The notes under the pieces were generated by a model. The model searched no databases and was not told the DNA's origin. It worked only from the letters and a program-made list of their open reading frames with translations. A program made the position numbers and the translations under genes. 64,000 nt of DNA from Catajapyx aquilonaris (Eukaryota). Positions 23,071-60,137 of the stretch are shown here, in pieces. Location of the stretch: assembly GCA_000934665.2 (NCBI GenBank), contig JYFJ02000923.1:1-64000 (forward strand), given 5' to 3'. Within the stretch, counting starts at the first letter, position 1. Each line of letters opens with the position of its first letter.

Positions 23071-23223
23071 ATGGTTGGGGAGGCCAAAATGGTGGTTTTG
23101 GCCAGCTTCTTGCTGATGGCCACCACTTTCCGCCAATTGCCTGGACTGTCTGCGCAGAGGGCACCCTGCTACGAGTGTGAGATGTATAAGGATGCGCACC
23201 CTGATTCCAACCCGTATGAGGAG
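23071..23223 (+). CDS. Ccn: CCN-family gene, putative coding exon 1 (signal peptide plus short N-terminal extension)
   Basis: Pyrimidine tract and AG at 23061-23062, ATG 23071 (second in-frame ATG 23089). Encodes MVGEAKMVVLASFLLMATTFRQLPGLSAQRAPCYECEMYKDAHPDSNPYEE, with a hydrophobic core and LSA/Q cleavage-like site. Ends GAG|GTAAGT in phase 0, matching the phase-0 acceptor at 50551. The link across the 27-kb intron is inferred. Confidence 0.72.
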
Positions 23224-23519
23224 GTAAGTTGATTTCCGGATGTTGCTTGTATGTAAGATGCAATGTAAGGCCATTTACAGGTCAAGTCAAGTCGACATAA
23301 TTTACTCCAGACCCACTGTTTGCATACTAGGTACAGTGTATTACCAAGCTTGTTCCACAAATTGATCATTTTACTGTACGTCAACATTGTGGCATTCTGT
23401 TGACACTAAACAAATGACCCCGACAGTAACAAGAGAATTTCACCATGCTGATATTTGGCAGATTGTCAATTTGCGTTTCTGGGTTAGTAATACTGTGACT
23501 GTAGCAATCAAATTAGTGA

Positions 23520-23744
23520 AGTGGATCTTGACGAGGTATAGATTAAGCTGTCCTTTGTAAATGGCCCTAACAACCACATAGGTTAGGTCCACACTTATAA
23601 TACACTCTTAACCATTTACCTTCTCTAGAGANAGTGGATCTTGACGAGGTATAGATTAAGCTGTCCTTTGTAAATGGCCCTAACAACCACATAGGTTAGG
23701 TCCACACTTATAATACACTCTTAACCATTTACCTTCTCTAGAGA
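23520..23744. other. 112-bp direct duplication around a single N (probable scaffold-join artefact)
   Basis: 23520-23631 appears identical to 23633-23744; N at 23632. Confidence 0.85.
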
Positions 23745-36300: not shown

Positions 36301-36666
36301 ATGGGAGACCATACGTATGCCATGTCACCACCTACGAGGCCAATAAATGGTCTGTGTGACGAAGCCTGGTTATCTTCCGGAGAAAGGGTCCCAGAAAGCC
36401 CCCAGGGAGAAACAGGAAGCCGAGATATGCCAGTACCCCTTCCAGGCACCCCTCCTCCTCAGAACACCAATGGTCCTACCCAGAACACCAATGGTCCTAC
36501 CCCGAACACCAATGGTCCTACCCAGAACACCAATGGTCCTGCCCAGAACACCAATGGTCCTGCCCAGAACACCAATGCTCCTGCCCAGAACACCAACAGT
36601 CCTTCCCAGAACACCAACCGTGCTTCCCAGAACACTGGTAATCCTGTGGAGAGGGCTCTCGAGTAG
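36301..36666 (+). CDS. Possible small ORF (121 aa) with QNTNGP[T/A] heptapeptide repeats
   Basis: ATG 36301, stop TAG 36664-36666, AATAAA 36706-36711. The open frame may simply reflect the stop-free minisatellite. Confidence 0.25.
   Translation: MGDHTYAMSPPTRPINGLCDEAWLSSGERVPESPQGETGSRDMPVPLPGTPPPQNTNGPTQNTNGPTPNTNGPTQNTNGPAQNTNGPAQNTNAPAQNTNSPSQNTNRASQNTGNPVERALE
36460..36636. repeat. 21-bp minisatellite, ~8.4 units
   Basis: Unit CAGAACACCAATGGTCCT(A/G)CC, drifting progressively towards the 3' end. Confidence 0.95.
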
Positions 36667-44814: not shown

Positions 44815-45498
44815 TCGCCCGGCTTGGAGTATGCTTATCTTCGATTCCTTCTTCTGCCACTTCGGAAAATGTCGCTAGCAATATGCTTCGATTTATGACT
44901 GATCAACACTGTATACCGTATGCCAATGCAGCCAAAATTTGCACCTCATTTTTTGATTATTTTGCAAAAAAGGACGCCAATAACCCGCCTATTTTTTACC
45001 ATATAGTCTACCTGTTAGATACGAGGGAAAGACTGTCAATTACTTATTAATAGCTTCAAGTAAACATCCTTAATGAAGAGGAGACAACCTCAAGCCAGTC
45101 CAAATCAACATGCACTATCTTTGAGGAGGACTGCCATGCAGAAATTACCGTCAATCTNCTCGCCCGGCTTGGAGTATGCTTATCTTCGATTCCTTCTTCT
45201 GCCGCTTCGGAAAATGTCGCTAGCAATATGCTTCGATTTATGATCAACACTGTATACCGTATGCCAATGCAGCCAAAATTTGCACCTCATTTTTTGATTA
45301 TTTTGCAAAAAAGGACGCCAATAACCCGCCTATTTTTTACCATATAGTCTACCTGTTAGATACGAGGGAAAGACTGTCGATTACTTATTAATAGCTTCAA
45401 GTAAACATCCTTAATGAAGAGGAGACAACCTCAAGCCAGTCCAAATCAACATGCACTATCTTTGAGGAGGACTGCCATGCAGAAATTACCGTCAATCT
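44815..45498. other. ~340-bp direct duplication around a single N (probable uncollapsed haplotypes)
   Basis: 44815-45157 vs 45160-45498, N at 45158. Seen differences: two substitutions and a 4-bp indel. Confidence 0.85.
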
Positions 45499-48643: not shown

Positions 48644-50550
48644 CCATTCAAACTTTGTGGGTGACTTCTGGGCATTTACGCAATCCACTACATTTATTGA
48701 ACTAATCTTTTATGGAGTTTGCTTTTATACTGTCAAATAGCCCCACGCTGTTTGAGCAGTATGACAGTAGTCATACAACGCAGGTTCAAATGATTATTTA
48801 ACTTGAGCAAACTGTCGTGGTATCCTTATTCATATATTAGCCTCTCAACCTAAATTGAACCCGAGATGTGAGGTCCGCCAGGTTAGGTTGGTTCTATTGG
48901 ATTTTTCCAAGCACAGCGTCACAACATATAGGCCTTTTTCCATGTTATTATGAGGGCTATAAGCAGAAGCCGACTTTCTCTTATGCACTAGAAATCACTC
49001 CGCTCAAGAAAGACGCTTAGATTGCCGTCACTCCAGGATAAAAAAACTACTTTTTTCATTCCCTTAGCTTCCAGTCAAGGGGACCAATGTGATTTACTGA
49101 CATATGTGACATTTCCACCAGCCACTAGAGTGCGTTGAAATATAACACACATTCATTACAGTCATAACCAACACATATCTCTGTGAAAAGGATAGCCTGC
49201 AATAAAGGGGCAGATGCATTAAGTTGATTCACAAATATGATTTCACGATAACGTATATGAAACTTTCTGCTAGCGTATGATCAATGATATGCATGAAATT
49301 ATTTCTTTTTATCGTGCGAGAAATGGGCAGATCTAGAGTTATACATTAGAATGTTTATGGCCTTCCGGAACGAGAACGACAAGAAAGATATAGGCTCCGC
49401 CCCTTGGCTCCTTCTATTTTCATGTTATCCGAAAGCGAGCCGGAATTGGATTTGGTATTTAGGATATTTTGGGTCAAATAATTTTAATAATCCATTGGTA
49501 TGTCTAACTACTAGCCGCCTCACGAAATACATTACTTAACTAAGTCTGTACAATTGGTGTAATATTCATCAACGATACAAGTCAATTGCATGTTAGATGA
49601 GAACAACGGAACACCAACACGGGTTTCGTGTAATAAATTAGCCGTGGCAAATATTGGATTGGCATAGGGTTTCTCTCCCTCTCCCCTTCCTTTTACCCTC
49701 TCAGCTTGAGTTGAGAAACGACTTCGTTGTGGCGAAGTTTCGTTGCAAGAAGGAAAGTGAGAGGAAGTTGCCTGCAAGTCCCATTCAAGGGTTTGGGGTA
49801 TAATTATTCCGACGGGAGGCGTGTTATTGCCATTGACACTACACTGCTGCCCGAGGAACCAAGATTCTAATTAAGGAATGCGAGGCGGTTTCTAAATGCT
49901 GAAAGCCTAGCCTGGAAGCAGGAAGAAGTAGACAGAGGGTAGGGGGTAAAAGAGTGGGGAGGTGTTTTAGAACTCAGATGCATTTTATATACTTAGTCAA
50001 CTAAAGTCTCATTAGCATCCAGAAATGAAAATTAAGATATCTTCTTTGGCGGGATTTTATAATGAAGTTCTAGTCTTAACAGATTGGTCATTCTGGGTCG
50101 ATGTTGTCAAGAGGTATAGTTCCTGGAAAATGCTGGTACAATATTTAAGTACTGTAGAATAATAGTTTTTAAAAACTCGCTCAACCAATAAGTAGGGCTA
50201 TACTCATAGCCAGTGAAAAGGGTACATTTCCTCTTTAAGTGGTTTTAAAATGTGAATATGGATTATCAGACTTATGGTATAATACATGCCCTTCAGATCC
50301 GGAGTAGGCCATCCCAGAGAATCGTAATATGACAAAAGCAAGCAAATTGGATTTTGCAGTATGCTCTAAAGACTTCATAAGGACTGCCATGTTTCACATT
50401 TAAGTGCACCCTGCTTCACCCTGCAATGCTTCTGACTCAAAAACAATCGATATTTTTTGGGATGGTCCAACCAGGCTTTGAGGGACTAAAATGTCACCCT
50501 AGAACTCACGCACCTTTCCTGTACTGCAGCAAACCCATTTGATTCCACAG

Positions 50551-50758
50551 ATCAGATCCCACTGCACCTACCCGTGTCAGTGCTCGGGAGCTCCCGTGTG
50601 TCCTCCAGGTGTGGCTCAGGTGGTAGATGGATGCGGATGCTGTCGCGTGTGTGCCCGACAAGCAGGAGAAGAATGCGATGGTACCCGACTCTGCGACGAA
50701 GCTCAAGGATTGGTATGTCAGTACCCTGGGCATTTGGCAGCGACTGGCACATGCCGAG
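50551..50758 (+). CDS. Ccn: CCN coding exon 2, IGFBP domain
   Basis: ttccacAG|ATC... encodes IRSHCTYPCQCSGAPVCPPGVAQVVDGCGCCRVCARQAGEECDGTRLCDEAQGLVCQYPGHLAATGTCR. Contains the GCGCCxxC motif and 12 Cys. Donor G|GTGAGT, phase 1. Confidence 0.95.
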
Positions 50759-50822: not shown

Positions 50823-50914
50823 CTATCAAAGGACTGCCATGCCAAGTGAACAACCGTACTTACGACAACGGCGAGACTTTTCTACTAGACTGTCGGACGC
50901 AGTGCACGTGTCAG
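50823..50914 (+). CDS. Ccn: CCN coding exon 3, N-terminal half of VWC domain
   Basis: Follows a 64-nt intron (catAG|CT). Encodes (A)IKGLPCQVNNRTYDNGETFLLDCRTQCTCQ, resembling CCN Y..GE.F...C...CTC. Donor CAG|GTATGT, phase 0. Confidence 0.95.
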
Positions 50915-51280
50915 GTATGTTCAATTGACCCTATTTTTGGGTGACTGGAAGTGCCACCAATCAGTGTGATCGAGTCGCGCTTCAGAGGCTAGTGGCTCTC
51001 ATTACTTTCACGACCTTTCCCCCCTCCGAACCCTTACCCACCTACCCAATTGCCTTCATCACTCTTGGTCGACGTCGCAGTTCATCGCCCTTTTCTTTAG
51101 TTCTGCAAGCCTATGGACTTGGTCGCATGCTTCGTGCTGTTCGAATTATATAGGACATACTGTATTTCATTTGGATGTATCAATGGGAGAGAACATCGGG
51201 AATGTTTTAAGAACAAAATATATATTTTAACCTTTTGAACATTTTTTAAAACATCTGATGCACATGCTGTGCAGAAACTG

Positions 51281-52084
51281 TTAAAACAAGTCGGGAAGGT
51301 TTCGGGGTAGCTCGATTGGGGTACGGTGATGATTCCGATGGAGTAGCTTCATTAACTTTGGAAGGGACACCTCGTATGGAGCCTCTTCGAACTCTACTTC
51401 CACTTTTTCTTCGGACCCACTGCATCCTTCTTTCAAAGCGACCTTTACGGGATGGGGTACTAGGGAAAGGCGAAGTTGTGGCATTCCTGGAAGTGTCGAA
51501 TTCTGGGAGTTTCTGGACACCCGAGGATTAGCTGCCAGGCGTTCATCGTACTTTTTCATGATCCTTTGTTCCGTGTTCAAGTATTCGCTCATTGAATCCT
51601 CCCATTCATCGCGACAATACTTTTCGGCTTTCCGGTTTCCGGTTACAAAAGAGGCACTAAGATGCCCTGCCACAATCACGTCCTCCTCTTCTTCTTCCGA
51701 GTCATCTGATAGCAGGTTATCTCGGAAGGTGGAATTCAGGACGCCTTTTTTGGTTGTGGTGTCGGAATGGACTAGGTCAAAGTTCATAAAGTCGAGGTAA
51801 CTGTCTGGGACAGATAGCATGTCTACAGGCAGAGGATCAGACACATTTCCCTGGAATTCTGCTGTTTGATCTTCTTCCTTCGAGTCAGTGTCAACATCTA
51901 CTTGCAACTGGATGTCTCTCGATGTATTCGGAGACTCCTCGGATGTATTGCAACTTCGTAGCTCACTCCAGATGGTAAGGTCGTTTGCAGTCGACTCCTG
52001 GGTTGTCCCTACAATCGTGTGCATTACTTCAACCTCCTCCGAACCGTCAAAGTCCACCTCCGGAATACTTGTTTTAGTCGCCAT
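51281..52084 (-). CDS. Candidate nested antisense gene, 267-aa acidic protein of unknown function
   Basis: Uninterrupted ORF inside the CCN intron 50915-54629. ATG in GCAATGG context. On the minus strand a CTAAC branch-like motif (52116-52112) and CAG acceptor (52097-52095) lie just upstream. No family recognised. Confidence 0.55.
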   Translation of the reverse strand: MATKTSIPEVDFDGSEEVEVMHTIVGTTQESTANDLTIWSELRSCNTSEESPNTSRDIQLQVDVDTDSKEEDQTAEFQGNVSDPLPVDMLSVPDSYLDFMNFDLVHSDTTTKKGVLNSTFRDNLLSDDSEEEEEDVIVAGHLSASFVTGNRKAEKYCRDEWEDSMSEYLNTEQRIMKKYDERLAANPRVSRNSQNSTLPGMPQLRLSLVPHPVKVALKEGCSGSEEKVEVEFEEAPYEVSLPKLMKLLHRNHHRTPIELPRNLPDLF

Positions 52085-52631
52085 TGCGACCTTGCTGATG
52101 GGACAAATTATGTTAGTATAGCAGTCTTCCCAGAAGTGCTTAAAACAATGATTTAAGAGGAACAACAACAGTATTTTTGTCTATTTTTTCTGACTACTGT
52201 AGTCTAAGTTAGAACCGGTCAGAACTCTAATAGATGTCGAATAATATCAAAGAGGTTTACTAGCCCAGAATTGGTATTCTTCCCAGAAATGACTATTAAT
52301 TAGTGTAAGTTAGGCCTACTTACAGAGTGTCTGGCGTTTGGGTCACCTTGATGGTTTTCACCACTATGACGATCTGTCACTGGTCTGCTGGTCACTTGAT
52401 CCGGAATGAATGTAGCATTATTATCTCCTCTGTTTATAACATTCACAGATGTACACTGGAAACAATAACAGACACGTGATTGAGGCAGAAAGCAAGGCCA
52501 ATTATAAAATTCATCTTTGTTGCAACTTCTAGGCCATTCAAAAGAAACAGAGACGCAAGAGAGTCTATGCGGTTGAAACTTCTTTATTTTAATGAAATTG
52601 CTAATAAATTTACGACTACTAGAGTCAGTAG

Positions 52632-52633
<2 letters not shown>

Positions 52634-52697
<64 letters not shown>

Positions 52698-52948
52698 GAT
52701 ACCCCGTGATAGGCCCCTTGGGCCTCTTAGGGGATCATCTTTTCGTGAACCGTCTTTAATCATTGCCTGCGTGTGATGGATTTTGATTGCAGGAGGAAAC
52801 GGGAGAACCCCGAGAAAACCCACGCGAACACGGAGAGAACCCATCGAAACTCTATCCACATAAGCATCCTTTGCGCGACCCGGGGATCGAACTCGGGACC
52901 TTAGAGGTGGAAGGCTGTGGCGCTAACCACTCCGCCACCGTGTCGCCC
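52634..52948 (-). mobile_element. tRNA-derived SINE (family B, V-domain-like), (TAT)n tail, 13-bp TSD
   Basis: A and B boxes, central GTTCTCTCCGTGTTCGCGTGGGTTTTCTCGGGTTCTCCCGTTTCCTCC, and (AAT)n ~52634-52696. AGAGTCAGTAGAT occurs at 52621-52633 and 52949-52961. Confidence 0.9.
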
Positions 52949-53047
52949 AGAGTCAGTAGATTATGTTAGCTAGCTGGCTGGAGTGTGGATTCTCTGTACT
53001 ATTCACTAGCTATTCCTTACACATAATTGGTTTAATATTAGCCTGTG

Positions 53048-53311
53048 AGGGCGACACGGTGGCGTAGTGGTTATCGCCGCAGCCTTCCACCTCAGAGGTC
53101 CCGAGTTCGATCCCAGGATCGAACAGAGGATATTTATGTGGATAGAGTTTCGATGGGTTCTCTCCGTGTTAGCGTGGGGTTTCTCGTGGTTCTCCCGTTT
53201 CCTCCCACTATCAAAATCCATCATAGCTCAGCAGGCAATGATTAAAGACGGTAGGCTACATGAAAAGATGATCCCCTAAGATGCCTAAGGAGGCCTAATT
53301 ATTATTAATAA
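53048..53311 (+). mobile_element. tRNA-derived SINE (family B, V-domain-like), 17-bp TSD
   Basis: GGGCGACACGGTGGCGTAGTGG ... GAGTTCGATCCC; homologous to 52634-52948. TTTAATATTAGCCTGTG occurs at 53031-53047 and 53312-53328. Confidence 0.9.
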
Positions 53312-53686
53312 TTTAATATTAGCCTGTGCTTTTACACAACAAACCAGCTAGGAATTGCTGATGTATGATTCATTACTAACGCACAAAAATATGAAAATCA
53401 CAGATGTGACTTGGTGCCACGGAGATTATTTACACGCATAGTGCCTGTGAGGCACCGGCCATCCGAACGAATTCGAACAGAAATGAACATATTGTTGTTC
53501 CGCAAGACACCAAGTCGTGATCATGTATAGACTGTGTGACTTAATAATTATGCTACACGGTATATTTCACTTACCTTTGAAACTTATGAGAGTAGTTTCA
53601 AGAGATTATATTCATACACGACAGCGTTCGAATTGTGTCAGGTCCTGTCAGAACATCCTTCTGCTCTCGTCAGAGGTTGTTGACCT

Positions 53687-53824
53687 GGGGGTGGGTTCAT
53701 CATAATTAATGTCGTAAGTCAAATTTTCGTCGTAACCGGTAGTAACCATTGTTACTAATAATTAACTAACTATGGTTACGACGAAAATTTGACTTACGAC
53801 ATTAATTATGATGAACCTACCCCC
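53687..53824. mobile_element. MITE with 51-bp inverted repeats (PIF/Harbinger-like ends, tentative)
   Basis: 53687-53737 is the reverse complement of 53774-53824 with one mismatch; 36-bp spacer. Confidence 0.85.
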
Positions 53825-54002
53825 GGATTCACAGTTGCCAGATGCACAGGGCGGTAAGAGAAAATGCGCGCTATTTGAATAACGTAAGCGCTATTAATAG
53901 TTCTTATTATGCTGTATTATTGTTAAGTATTGTGTATCAGTGTATGCCTATGTAAATATCGACCCGTCATTATGAAGCAGCGATTACAGTAAAATATGAA
54001 CT

Positions 54003-54030
54003 CAATAATAATAATAATAATAATAATAAT

Positions 54031-54086
<56 letters not shown>

Positions 54087-54240
54087 CCTAATAATAATAA
54101 TAATAATAATATTTATTTATTTATTTATTTATTTATTTACCACCCCGCGAGGCATATTACATCAATAAGGGGGGTGTCTCACAAAACAATATCGCAAAAT
54201 TTGAGTGATCTCGCCAGCCCACAAAAGAAAAAAAATACAC
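54003..54240 (-). mobile_element. Short 5'-truncated retroposon insertion with compound microsatellite tail
   Basis: GTAAAATATGAACT is duplicated at 53989-54002 and 54241-54254. It encloses (AAT)n(CAT)n(AAT)n(TTTA)n plus ~100 bp of unique sequence. Confidence 0.65.
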
Positions 54241-54629
54241 GTAAAATATGAACTTGTATACATATCAGGTCCGAATGCCTCCGTTGTGTAAATATTATTC
54301 CTTCCACTTAACTGGTGTATTTGTACGTACTATACAGGTCCTCGAATTTACCGTGCCAATTTGTTAAAATATCAACCAATCTGTTGTATTCATTTGCCAC
54401 TATTCCGAGTATAAATGCCGAACCCATTGATCAGTATTAGCCGGGGGTCTATATAATTATTGTAATAAATAATGTAATGTATAAATATTGTAAGTTGTTG
54501 TGAAAACTGACAGTACAATACGTTTGGAATTAAATACATTTTAATATTCATGCTGAAGTGTTGTAAACACACCATTTGGCTGATTTAAAAGGCTTCTAAT
54601 ATTTTGTCTTCTCTCTTTCTACCATTCAG

Positions 54630-55648: not shown

Positions 55649-55860
55649 CATGGACTCTTCTCCCTTGCCCCGCATCTTTGGTGGACTGGAGCCCATGTTC
55701 AGCCCCATGCGGACTTGGTCTATCAGTACGGACATCCAGTCAAGTTGACCTCTGTCGCCCTCGAAACGAAACCAGGTTGTGTCAGATCAGACCCTGCAGT
55801 GGTGGTCACCCTCAAGGCGAAATTGACGAAGAAATTCCTGCCCATCACCACCATCTGAGG
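55649..55860 (+). CDS. Ccn: CCN coding exon 5, thrombospondin type 1 domain
   Basis: tcttgtAG|CA, phase 1. Encodes (A)WTLLPCPASLVDWSPCSAPCGLGLSVRTSSQVDLCRPRNETRLCQIRPCSGGHPQGEIDEEIPAHHHHLR, with WSxCSxxCG and ETRLCxxRPC and 6 Cys. Donor AGG|GTAAGA, phase 0. Confidence 0.95.
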
Positions 55861-56389: not shown

Positions 56390-56460
56390 GCACTCATAGC
56401 TCAGGTGGAAGAGCAACGGCTTAAAGCTGGAGGTCCCGGGTTCGAGTCCCGGTGAGGGCA
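56390..56460 (+). pseudogene. tRNA-like sequence with defective anticodon arm (tRNA pseudogene or solo SINE head)
   Basis: Acceptor stem GCACTCA/TGAGGGC (1 mismatch), D stem GCTC/GAGC, T arm CCGGG-TTCGAGT-CCCGG. The anticodon arm is ~2 nt short, so identity is not assignable. Confidence 0.65.
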
Positions 56461-57248
56461 CTACTCTATAGCTTCATCACCAGTACCTGCAGGCATCGTA
56501 TATATTTTTCAAACCTGTCGTTTAATATCGGAATGGGGATGGCGTGCCTCAAATGTTGATAGATAATGAAGACAGCAGGCTTGAGTGGTGGGGGGTTGGG
56601 GGAACATGGGAGGTAATATATACTGCGCTCTGAAAAGGGAGTTGAGGATATCCGTTTCGCGCGATAAACGTCGGATGTGATTGGAGCCTCATATTTCAGG
56701 ATAGATTCATACCTGGCGATTACATGGGGAGTGCCTGCGGTCATTTTCAGAGAGGATAAAGCGATTTTGCCTGGAAGCCCATATTCAATTGCTCAAATTG
56801 TCCTAAAAACATGTAAAATGCTCTAATTAGCCTACACAGCATTGATTTCATTGGGCGCTACTACATAGAGGCGGATCAAAAAAAACATCACACCTGTGAC
56901 ACTACATTTTTGTGATGGCTAGAAAATTACCAAATTTTCTATTCTTCCGATCCGCATTCTTGCCATCTGTTGCGCACCACTAGAATCACTTGATAGCCTA
57001 GGATAGTCGAGCTGTAACTTTCCTGAAGACAGACTAGATGGCCTCAGATGGCACCACTGGGACCCCTCTTTTTCTCTCCCAGGACGATGACAGATGGGCC
57101 ACTTGTTCGCATTTCTAATCGTGCGAGGTGGGGGTGTGACCCGGCAAATGGCTGATTCCACACACCCTGGGGTTGTGTGAAATTACCACCATTTGCGGGT
57201 CCAAAGTTGAGTCGACAGTCAGTCCTGTGCCCAACATGATCTTTGCAG

Positions 57249-57632
57249 AAGGGCCGCTGGTGCAAGGCTACCAGACGGGTGTCCCGACCCGTCTTCCTGC
57301 ATGTTGGGGAATGCCAGAGTGAGCGGAGGTACCGGCCAAAGTTTTGCGGATGGTGTGGTGTGGGGTCACCTGCTCCTGAGTGCGAGCCGCAGCTTAGCAC
57401 CACCATCATGGCAGACTTCTTCTGCCCAGCGGAGGCAGTAGAGCGGCTGCAGGATCAGGAGGAGATGTCGGCTGAAGCAATGGTCAGGGTCATGGGGGTG
57501 TCATGGCCGCAGAATATGTGGAGACGGGAGGAGAAGATTTTGAGGGAAGAACTCATACGGCAACAATTGGCTGAGCAAGAAGAGGAGGAAGAAGAGGAGG
57601 AGGAGGAAGCACTGGAGGAAGAGGAAGAAGAA

Positions 57633-57663
<31 letters not shown>

Positions 57664-58046
57664 CTGAGGAGGAACGGAATCGTCGCCGACGGCGGAGCGC
57701 AAACTTTGCAAGCTGGACCGACTATGGCGATCATGACGAAGAGATTTTTGGAGAACCGGAACCGTTATTCCCAGATATGCCAGAATCAGAAGTGGAGTCG
57801 ACCAGCACTACAACCACGGCACCAAGCACTACCACGGTACAAGTCGAGGATGAAGATGAGGATGAGGATGAGGAGGAAGAGGATGGTTTGGAGACGTACC
57901 GCCGGGTCACCCTGAAGGTTCAATGGATTTTGAAGTGCAGCTGCGAAGTAGATCCAGTGGGCCAGACCGAAGAAACAGTGCGGCGCAATCAACAAGGCGA
58001 GGTCTTGCTGCACCGTGTGCACAGGACTGCGCAATCACAACCTTAA
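57249..58046 (+). CDS. Ccn: CCN terminal coding exon, CT cystine-knot domain interrupted by a large acidic insertion
   Basis: ctttgcAG|AAG. KGRWC...EC...YRPKFCGWC...EC.P..STT...F.CP matches the first part of the CCN CT domain, and VQWILKCSC matches its end. 265 aa to TAA 58044-58046. Confidence 0.93.
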
Positions 58047-58460
58047 TTCAAACTGTGATTCAGACTGAGACATTGGACACGAATGGGAATCTGCTAGTAG
58101 TTTTGCTGCTATTGCATTTTAGTGATTTCACGTCACTGAAAGTTCTTCCATAACATTGCACACTTTCAGCTAGCAACTGGAATCGTATATTGCAAGTCAG
58201 ATTCGACATATCAGTTGCAAACGCTAGTTATCAGTTAGTCAAACACCAGCAAATTCCCATTCCAGACGTTGACAATACGACCTTAGGCTGACATTATTGT
58301 CGAAATTGATAGCCAGTGGACGAATTGACTTTATCCGTATACGACCCCTTGCTCCATCCCGAAACCCTACAGTGGTAGTGCAGAACCAGTGGGAAGTGGA
58401 CCAAAACCCACCTCACAAAATGAAACAAGAAGAAGAAAATATGCGTGTGAATGGTTTAAA

Positions 58461-58466
58461 AATAAA
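58461..58466 (+). terminator. Candidate polyadenylation signal of the CCN gene
   Basis: AATAAA ~415 nt after the stop codon. Further AATAAA at 58900-58905 and 59029-59034; which is used is unknown. Confidence 0.35.
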
Positions 58467-60137
58467 GTATGTTACCTAAAATAGGGAACGACAAGAAAGC
58501 TACGTATAGGGACATATCCTCGTGCTACATGTGCCTCAATGTTGCCCCAAAGGGCAGCTGAATTATATTCCTTGTGTCTCTATCCCTTACCCATTCCTAA
58601 ATATTTACCCCTACAGTTTTCAGTGTACCGTAATTTCATTCTGTCATGGCGTCCGAGTGGAAATACGCTCATGGACTTTGATTGTCTTGGTGGGTAACAA
58701 AGAAGTATCATTGGCGTCTGCACTTTCCTCCCAAATACTTTCTTCCTTAAAATATAGCGGGACCAGTGAGACGTCGGAGAAAAATGTATCATGTCTTTGA
58801 ACTGTCTTCTTATTACAGTACACTGTTCTAGAGCCAGAACATACAATATACTGTAGGTGGTTGTGTCGTTCTCTGTCTATCACGTGAATCTACCAAAAAA
58901 ATAAATATATAGTACAAAATCAGTAATACACTCTTAATGCATACATCATTCATAAATGTCCGGGCTAACAATATGGCATGCTCTACCATAATGAACCTTT
59001 TATTCAAATGGCAGTATTAAACAGATTCAATAAATTTTCCATTTGGAATGTAATAATTGGGGGTATATACTGTAGTTCAGCAGCAGTTGACATTTCCTGG
59101 TTGTGCGCTGCATTTTTAGATATCGACTTCGTGTAAAATTCATGTCACGTTGACGAATTAAAATGTGAAAATGCGTGCATTGTGCAGCTTGTTATGATCT
59201 GTACGGCTTTTTACATTGTGTCAAATGGGCACTTTTGCCTCGGTTGCATTCGAAGGCTTCATTACTTTCCGTAATTGTTAAAACCAGTTGCTGTACAAAA
59301 TCACATTATGGTAAATCATAACTCATAAGCATCTAGTTCGATGTGCCATATCTGATCATTTGTGTAAATCAAGCTTCAAATTGTCCGCATTTAAAAAAAT
59401 TAAATAAGTTTGCGAATATACTTTATTAATAATTATGTAAACCGTGACCTGAACAGTGAATTACATGAGAGATTTGACTCGAGCAATTCGAAGCACATAA
59501 GGTTATCATAATCTGGACAACATTTCAGAAACATTAATATTTTTTACATTCCAATTACAAAATTGCAGAATATCTTAATGAGCTCAACTTCTGGGAAAGA
59601 TTTCGAGTTTTTACCTATAAGTCAATAGATCTATCCCAGTCAGATAAGGCAACGCTTGACAAATGCAGGCCAGTGACCAGCAACTTTATGCATAGGGTGG
59701 TTGGGTGTCAATATTTTCAGCCATGTGTCTCATTAACTTCAACCATCTTACGGAGGTGAATCAGACACCATATGGCAAGGTAAGTGGCGTCCAATATCCT
59801 GAAGAGAACTTCACATCACTAAGCGTGTTCCTGACTTCCGTATGACTTGTGGACAATACAGCTAGACAAAATAATATAATTCCAAAAGAAAGTACCCCTT
59901 TGGTAGTCTCTGGTAGTAATAGCCCTCTCGGCCTTGAATTCCTTTCACAAGACCTTGCGCCTGCAGGTTATGCTTCACATGCGACAAGGGTGCGGTTTCA
60001 TAACTGGTCGGGATAAAGGCGATTGCCTGAGTGACACCACATCAGGACGGGACGGACCCTTCAATGAACCACTTGCTTATTATTAGTTAATCATTCAAAT
60101 GACATCATTATATCCTCGCCGTCACATGTAGGCTATA

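What the first reader, a model, noticed from the sequence alone, without database searches (positions are those of the whole stretch)
57429..57900. CCN cystine knot split by a ~155-aa acidic insert carrying a furin-type site: candidate proinsulin-like two-chain CCN
Seen: 170 residues separate the Cys of FFCP from the first Cys of KCSC within one exon. The stretch holds a charged helix-like segment, a poly-Glu tract (~57579-57674), RNRRRRR/S (57675-57698), a Thr-rich stretch, an Asp/Glu run, and RR pairs (WRRE early in the insert, YRRV at its C-terminal edge). Known: in vertebrate CCN2 this spacing is about 15 residues (CPDGEVMKKNMMFIKTC), the CT domain is basic and binds heparin and integrins, R-X-[K/R]-R is the furin consensus, and the terminal CxC bonds to the CGxC ring. 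Inference: the insert loops out of a knot finger and could mask the basic CT surface. Convertase cleavage would leave the C-terminal strand attached only by disulfides, possibly releasing an acidic peptide. A Ca2+/mineral-binding role is an alternative. I do not recall this being described for CCN proteins but cannot exclude that it is known in invertebrate orthologues.
Basis: partly seen in the sequence, partly recalled or inferred. Interest (0 to 1): 0.85.

Follow-up and report, generated by a model that had tools for sequence, protein, structure and literature searches.

The report
Insect CCN with cleavable knot loop
This is the last exon of an insect CCN (matrix signalling protein) gene whose cystine-knot domain carries a long acidic loop; such a loop is general in insects and crustaceans, but here it holds a strong protease cut site that could turn the protein into two disulfide-linked chains, which is predicted and not yet shown.

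Summary
A six-exon, 530-residue CCN gene ends in an exon where 170 cysteine-free residues (net charge -48) separate the two cysteines that lie 15 residues apart in CCN2. An exon-only, spliced run holds the insert unspliced from 57442 onward. The knot is intact: models put the insert at the tip of finger 2, and an accessory cysteine pair is lost in step across it. The insert is not peculiar to this gene: 81 of 81 named insect and crustacean CCNs have one (38-316 residues). The furin motif is patchy: 4 of 4 damselfly genes, 1 of 2 mayflies, 4 of 15 malacostracans, 0 of 60 neopteran insects. The RNRRRRR/S cluster is beyond chance (shuffle p about 0.001) and uses mixed codons. The best reading is one furin cut giving a nicked, disulfide-linked two-chain CCN (about 44 + 13 kDa) that keeps both acidic arms. 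Proinsulin-like excision is unlikely here, because the flanking RR pairs are poor sites and one lies in a knot strand. Cleavage is untested and no function is shown. A new variant of a known kind, of moderate interest.

The parts
23071..23223 (+). Coding exon 1: signal-peptide-like N-terminus and a Cys-x-x-Cys segment
   Evidence: tblastn with damselfly and orthopteran CCNs, E 2e-9 and 3e-10; GT donor; signal peptide judged by eye and homology
50551..50758 (+). Exon 2: IGFBP domain
   Evidence: Pfam PF00219 E 8.9e-10; X5 contig 15 covers 50549-50689
50823..50914 (+). Exon 3: first half of VWC domain
   Evidence: Pfam PF00093 E 0.014, below cut-off; tblastn 67-88% identity
54630..54759 (+). Exon 4: second half of VWC domain
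   Evidence: Pfam PF00093 E 0.027, below cut-off; X5 contig 19 joins it to exon 5
55649..55860 (+). Exon 5: TSP1 domain
   Evidence: Pfam PF19035 TSP1_CCN E 1.1e-16
57249..57425 (+). Exon 6, N-half of the cystine knot: six Cys (57261, 57312, 57345, 57354, 57381, 57423); a single Cys where most CCNs have CC
   Evidence: alignments A1, A2, A4; model strands up to residues 46-60
57426..57935 (+). 170-residue Cys-free stretch, net charge -48, of which the last 13 residues are the returning beta-strand
   Evidence: transcript-like contig from 57442; model
57519..57530 (+). WRRE: Trp conserved in insect inserts, followed by a weak dibasic pair
   Evidence: alignment A1
57579..57674 (+). Poly-Glu tract, mixed GAA/GAG codons
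57675..57698 (+). RNRRRRR/S: predicted furin site, four different Arg codons
   Evidence: cleavage inferred, not shown
57798..57884 (+). Thr-rich stretch and Asp/Glu run
57897..57944 (+). Last knot strand, from YRRV to the CxC (57936, 57942); no further Cys after it
   Evidence: model strand at residues 217-231, pLDDT blocks 74 and 91; W and both Cys invariant in A1
58008..58046 (+). C-terminal LHRVHRT motif and stop codon
58047..58905 (+). Probable 3' untranslated region; AATAAA at 58900
   Evidence: X5 contig 20 ends at 58897

Best explanation
The gene encodes a full four-domain insect CCN. Its cystine knot folds normally as one chain, with the insert looped out at the tip of finger 2 (supported by models and cysteine pattern). 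In the secretory pathway a furin-type convertase cuts once after RNRRRRR (inferred). The product is a nicked two-chain CCN: an N chain of about 44 kDa and a C chain of about 13 kDa held by two knot disulfides. Both acidic arms stay attached and nothing is released. The likely effect is to turn a closed acidic loop on the finger tip into two free arms, changing access of partners or heparan sulfate to the knot (weakly inferred; about 0.3 on its own).
For: Signal-peptide-like exon and intact 530-codon frame with GT-AG introns. Insert present unspliced from 57442 in an exon-only run. Model: strands 46-60 and 217-231 flank the insert; best Foldseek rows are sclerostin and the vWF CTCK domain, E 0.05-0.2. 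The mayfly orthologue's model matches sclerostin (Z 7.2, rmsd 3.4, 78 aligned), vWF CTCK (Z 6.4, 2.3, 75), and its top 36 rows are cystine-knot proteins. The accessory Cys before the insert and the one after it occur together in 58 of 95 rows, are both absent in 34 (window included), and disagree in 3. The basic cluster is beyond chance and uses mixed codons. Furin motifs sit in identical blocks between two damselfly genera while acidic parts diverge; their superfamilies are each dated over 100 My (PMC8586788, passages). Motif clusters: 14 in 6,697 insert residues, 0 in 4,092 tail residues of the window and named rows (not composition-matched).
Against: No cleavage data. 0 of 60 neopteran CCNs have the motif, so CCN function does not need it. 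Damselfly inserts are arginine-rich, so 1.4 of 4 motifs are expected by chance; malacostracans 4 of 15 against 1.0 expected, at scattered positions. The site's position is not alignable between lineages: tblastn paired it with the damselfly A site, MAFFT with a B site. The model draws residues 88-156, site included, as one helix, which could hinder cleavage. The cysteine covariation gives only 4 of 4 independent pairs on starred branches, p 0.125. Both Foldseek searches had no row at E 0.001 or better, and Z 7.2 is in the range the tool calls common. The damselfly conserved blocks hold many other arginines and could be binding patches.
Confidence: 0.5

Rival explanations
1. The loop is a tolerated low-complexity expansion and the protein stays mostly single-chain. 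The arginine run pairs with the adjacent poly-Glu in a helix or binds heparan sulfate, or any cut is incidental.
For: Insert length varies from 38 to 316 residues across 81 named rows; no other of the 95 rows has an acidic run above 8 against 16 here; motif absent in 60 of 60 neopterans; predicted helix covers the site; long branch of the window gene (0.87).
Against: Cluster p about 0.001 with mixed codons; motifs kept in damselflies; an exposed R-x-R-R/S in a secreted protein is usually cut (recalled).
Confidence: 0.3
2. Proinsulin-like processing: two or more cuts remove an acidic connecting peptide and leave a compact two-chain knot.
For: Dibasic pairs at 57522-57527 and 57900-57905. Damselfly paralogue B has 3 furin motifs in each species, two of them shared.
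Against: In the window neither pair has a P4 arginine; one is followed by Glu-Glu, the other by Val inside the predicted strand, where cockroach and termite CCNs also have basic residues.
Confidence: 0.1
3. The main role of the insert is calcium, mineral or cuticle binding through its acidic tracts; cleavage is secondary.
For: Most acidic insert of 95 rows (-48; next -23). 77 of 81 named inserts are net acidic.
Against: Damselfly and mayfly inserts are near neutral (-2 to +5); the extreme acidity is not shared by any relative found; no test was possible.
Confidence: 0.07
4. The insert is an assembly artefact or is spliced out, or the gene is decaying.
For: The transcript-like contig does not cover 57249-57441; the knot N-half has changed at otherwise conserved positions.
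Against: DNA and transcript-like contigs agree in length; no donor-like site; open frame with 38 Cys; termite loci L001-L006 carry the insert in one open exon.
Confidence: 0.03

Closest known systems
CCN family (CCN1-6; Drosophila Ccn)
   Same: Signal peptide, IGFBP, VWC, TSP1 and CT domains in order; eight CT cysteines that map on CCN2 C256, C273, C284, C287, C293, C307, C323, C325 (numbers from PMC10326224, section 12).
   Different: 170 residues instead of 15 between the C307 and C323 equivalents; lacks the C292/C329 pair; VWC split over two exons; a convertase motif inside the knot. Known CCN processing is in the hinge between VWC and TSP1 (PMC10326224, passages).
Damselfly and mayfly CCNs (Ischnura, Hetaerina, Ephemera, Neocloeon; names from the sources)
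   Same: Insert at the same place; furin motif in 5 of 6; C-terminal HRVHR in 5 of 6.
   Different: Their inserts are near neutral; they keep the accessory Cys pair; site position cannot be aligned with the window's.
Sclerostin, vWF CTCK, Gremlin, Norrin, NBL1
   Same: Cystine-knot fold; best structural matches.
   Different: Single-chain knots; the matches cover about 75-82 residues and leave out the loop.
Proinsulin / relaxin (recalled)
   Same: Single-chain folding followed by convertase cleavage to disulfide-linked chains.
   Different: Different fold; two cuts release a C-peptide; only one good site here.
Horseshoe-crab coagulogen (fold match Z 2.6; processing recalled)
   Same: Arthropod cystine-knot protein that becomes two-chain on proteolysis.
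   Different: As recalled, the cuts lie N-terminal to the knot and are made by a clotting enzyme.

Membership tests
CCN | N-terminal signal peptide | tested here: inconclusive
   Hydrophobic N-terminus homologous to annotated insect CCNs; no signal-peptide predictor available
CCN | IGFBP domain | tested here: met
   PF00219 E 8.9e-10, above cut-off
CCN | VWC domain | tested here: met
   Two exon halves hit PF00093 positions 1-27 and 25-56, each below cut-off; 65-88% identity to insect CCNs
CCN | TSP1 domain of CCN type | tested here: met
   PF19035 E 1.1e-16
CCN | C-terminal cystine knot with six knot cysteines | tested here: met
   Six knot Cys plus the finger pair present and aligned with vertebrate-like CT rows; fold matches. 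Pfam gave no knot hit
CCN | Four domains in order in one transcript | tested here: inconclusive
   One open spliced frame predicted; only the exon 4-5 joint was seen directly
Furin substrate | R-x-[K/R]-R motif | tested here: met
   Three overlapping matches at 57675-57695; consensus recalled and quoted in PMC12649860 (passage)
Furin substrate | Site exposed and flexible | tested here: inconclusive
   Outside the knot but drawn as helix in the model; coil of low confidence in the mayfly model
Furin substrate | Cleavage in cells | not testable with these tools
   Needs expression and proteomics
Proinsulin-like precursor | Two convertase sites flanking a removable peptide | tested here: not met
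   One furin cluster; the two other RR pairs lack P4 Arg and one lies in the knot strand
Proinsulin-like precursor | Chains joined by disulfides across the cut | tested here: inconclusive
   Follows from the CCN2 connectivity (PMC10326224) and Cys pattern; bonds not measured

The most novel reading that the evidence does not exclude
In early-branching winged insects, and separately in some decapods, CCN has become a convertase-processed precursor: the cystine knot is matured to a two-chain form by a cut in finger 2 that switches its activity, and in forms with several sites (damselfly paralogue B, one site with a Gly-Lys-Arg amidation-type signal, recalled) peptides are released from inside the knot.
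Probability: 0.15. Interest if true: 0.8.

Novelty: new variant of a known kind. Interest (0 to 1): 0.5.

Why it matters
If the cut is real, it is a second way to control CCN proteins by proteolysis, inside the knot rather than in the hinge, and a rare two-chain cystine knot that tests what finger 2 does in a family without an agreed receptor. Two by-products hold regardless. First, insect and crustacean CCNs keep a complete CT knot interrupted by a loop, whereas PMC6610741 concluded that arthropods lost the CT domain. Second, the C292 and C329 equivalents are lost together, which favours an intramolecular bond over a dimer bond, a point PMC10326224 calls unresolved.

Tried and rejected
No whole genome is held, so paralogues outside the window could not be sought; tblastn found one CCN gene in the window. 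Pfam and PDB sequence searches with the whole exon gave only poly-Glu noise. Homolog search among longer proteins with residues 1-62 was empty. The wide structural search of the full exon model was filled by long helices. Protein Atlas gave no usable hit. The complex prediction of the two predicted chains gave no answer (score 0.02, no alignments); it is evidence neither way. No run was listed as RNA. Five ATG-started forms of the exon product are not in the collection (0 of 5). The metagenome scan gave 9 loci, 8 termite-like by sequence and 1 partial, no closer relative. Earlier findings: nothing by sequence or words, one unrelated neighbour. The lineage was not fixed: sister to Ephemera at SH-aLRT 83, unstarred, on 72 columns; with both mayflies at 87 when insert columns were kept. 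Charge complementarity was not supported. No dragonfly, silverfish, springtail, Lepidoptera, Hymenoptera or named Drosophila sequence came up, so the origin of the motif is open. The fly Ccn paper (Garrett 2023) is not held.

Full report
Observation. Between the Cys at 57423-57425 and the Cys at 57936-57938 lie 170 residues without Cys, net charge -48. In 20,000 shuffles of this stretch an R-x-[K/R]-R motif appeared in 8.7%, five basic residues in a row in 0.1%, six in seven in 0.03%. The six arginines use four different codons and the poly-Glu mixes GAA and GAG, so neither is a fresh pure microsatellite.

The gene. tblastn with insect CCNs located six coding exons. Joined at GT-AG ends they give 530 residues with 38 Cys (one search was a first try with wrong ends). 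Pfam finds IGFBP and TSP1_CCN above cut-off, VWC as two sub-threshold halves, and no knot model. Run X5, of another study and of unrecorded kind, covers exons, 3' end and repeats only; contig 19 joins exon 4 to exon 5, so I treat it as RNA. Its contig 20 runs from 57442 to 58897 and keeps the 102-base distance across the masked poly-Glu tract (3 of 5 listed runs were laid, and the table of pieces is cut). It does not reach 57249-57441. No donor-like site lies in 57380-57900. The insert is therefore real and most likely translated.

Relatives. Searches returned 29, 118 and 56 proteins, overlapping. I gave 96 rows to the count: the window, one row per named species or paralogue with both knot halves, and 11 unnamed rows; fragments, five non-CCN hits and most unnamed rows were left out; 95 parsed, Halyomorpha did not. 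Species names come from the sources; the orders are my assignment. All 81 named insect and malacostracan rows have an enlarged spacing, 38 to 316 residues, Cys-free, net acidic in 77. Two Limulus rows have 19 and three vertebrate-like unnamed rows 15. Seven rows are longer than the window's, but the window's is the most acidic. The furin motif occurs in 4 of 4 damselfly genes (1.36 expected from shuffles), 1 of 2 mayflies (0.14), 4 of 15 malacostracans (1.0), 0 of 60 neopterans (0.3) and 2 of 11 unnamed rows, one of them in a 15-residue vertebrate-like turn. On a quick tree of 49 of the 95 rows without the insert it needs 5 changes; the window sits beside Ephemera without firm support, and Diptera are misplaced, so such counts are rough. 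Between Ischnura and Hetaerina the blocks holding the motifs are identical while acidic parts diverge. Whether the window's site is homologous to either damselfly site cannot be decided.

Structure. PMC10326224 (abstract, passages, section 12 part 1) gives CCN2 bonds C256-C293, C284-C323, C287-C325, C273-C307 (the last found by mass spectrometry) and a predicted C292-C329, and calls the role of the extra cysteines elusive. By order and alignment the window has the first eight and lacks C292 and C329. Across 95 rows these two are both present in 58, both absent in 34, and only the first is present in 3; on the tree 8 and 9 changes, 4 of 4 independent pairs on starred branches, p 0.125, too few for significance. 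The AlphaFold2 model of the exon has strands at 46-60 and 217-231 around the insert, one long helix at 88-156 that includes the arginine run, and low confidence after it. Foldseek ranks sclerostin and vWF CTCK first, without reaching E 0.001. The mayfly orthologue, with a 55-residue spacing, matches sclerostin, vWF CTCK, Gremlin, Norrin and NBL1 at Z 5.6-7.2. The insert thus lies at the tip of finger 2 of an intact knot.

Mechanism. Shown: sequence, gene structure, transcript-like cover, family-wide insert, patchy motif. Inferred: secretion, single-chain folding, one furin cut after 57695. That would give chains of 386 residues (43.8 kDa, 36 Cys) and 116 residues (13.2 kDa, 2 Cys), taking the signal peptide as 28 residues by eye, joined by the two ring disulfides. 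Each chain keeps an acidic arm (-33 and -21). Excision needs further cuts; WRRE and YRRV lack a P4 arginine and YRRV is in the strand. Masking of the basic knot is possible but unsupported: the knot is +6 against a median of +10 and charges do not correlate clearly. Against cleavage stand the predicted helix and the absence of the motif in most insects. I put one cut at 0.5, uncut or incidental at 0.3, excision at 0.1, mineral binding at 0.07, artefact at 0.03.

Literature. Ten searches listed no paper on an insert or convertase site in an arthropod CCN knot; most subscription papers are outside this library. PMC6610741 (passages and part of Table 1) lists fly CCN without a CT domain, says arthropods lost it, and mentions unknown insertions in extra exons; 17 of 17 named dipteran rows here keep the knot with a 50-residue spacing, though Drosophila itself was not among the named rows. 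In PMC10326224 the word furin occurs once, about vWF, and insect or invertebrate not at all. The fly Ccn paper (Garrett 2023, seen only as a reference in PMC10274667) is not held and may describe the loop. PMC8586788 (passages) dates the two damselfly superfamilies at 112 and 107 My. PMC12649860 (passages) was used for the furin motif only. No supplements were read; alignments in them could show the insert. Insulin, coagulogen and amidation rules are recalled.

Verdict. Observation confirmed, interpretation partly supported. A CCN with a lineage-general knot loop and a lineage-limited, probably cleavable site: new variant of a known kind, interest 0.5.

Noticed in passing
window 58008-58028: A C-terminal HRVHR motif occurs in 47 of 95 rows, all named ones insects; absent from 17 Diptera, 15 Malacostraca and 2 Limulus rows. 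Role unknown.
   Followed up: partly
window 57519-57521: A Trp in the first third of the insert, usually in a PGxDLW-like motif, is kept across insect orders, so part of the loop is conserved.
   Followed up: partly
P0094, P0097, P0110, P0111: Both damselflies have two CCN paralogues with identical knot N-halves, and the two Hetaerina copies share a stretch not shared with Ischnura: possible gene conversion.
   Followed up: no
P0110, P0111: Damselfly paralogue B keeps two furin motifs about 50 residues apart, the second ending in Gly-Lys-Arg: a better candidate for peptide release than the window's gene.
   Followed up: partly
malacostracan rows, e.g. P0095, P0100, P0163: Their inserts end in a conserved acidic, Tyr-containing block before the last strand; candidate sulfation sites by inference.
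   Followed up: no
window 55649-55860: The TSP1 exon is 212 bases, the size PMC6610741 reports as fixed in vertebrates; the VWC domain is split by an extra intron (50915-54629).
   Followed up: no
window 23224-50550: First coding intron of 27 kb; an acceptor-like site just before the ATG suggests a non-coding upstream exon.
   Followed up: no
window 51281-52180, minus strand: Intronic open frame of 299 codons, acidic; no Pfam hit, no Atlas hit, no cover by run X5.
   Followed up: partly
window 52750-53300 and 56390-56461: High-copy repeats (summed depth above 100,000 in DNA runs) that look tRNA-derived; ARAGORN calls a tRNA-Leu(TAA) at 56390-56461, possibly a SINE copy.
   Followed up: partly
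window 23514-23744, 36453-36635, 44815-45498: Tandem repeats of 113, 21 and 341 bases; the near-identical two-copy ones could be assembly duplications.
   Followed up: no
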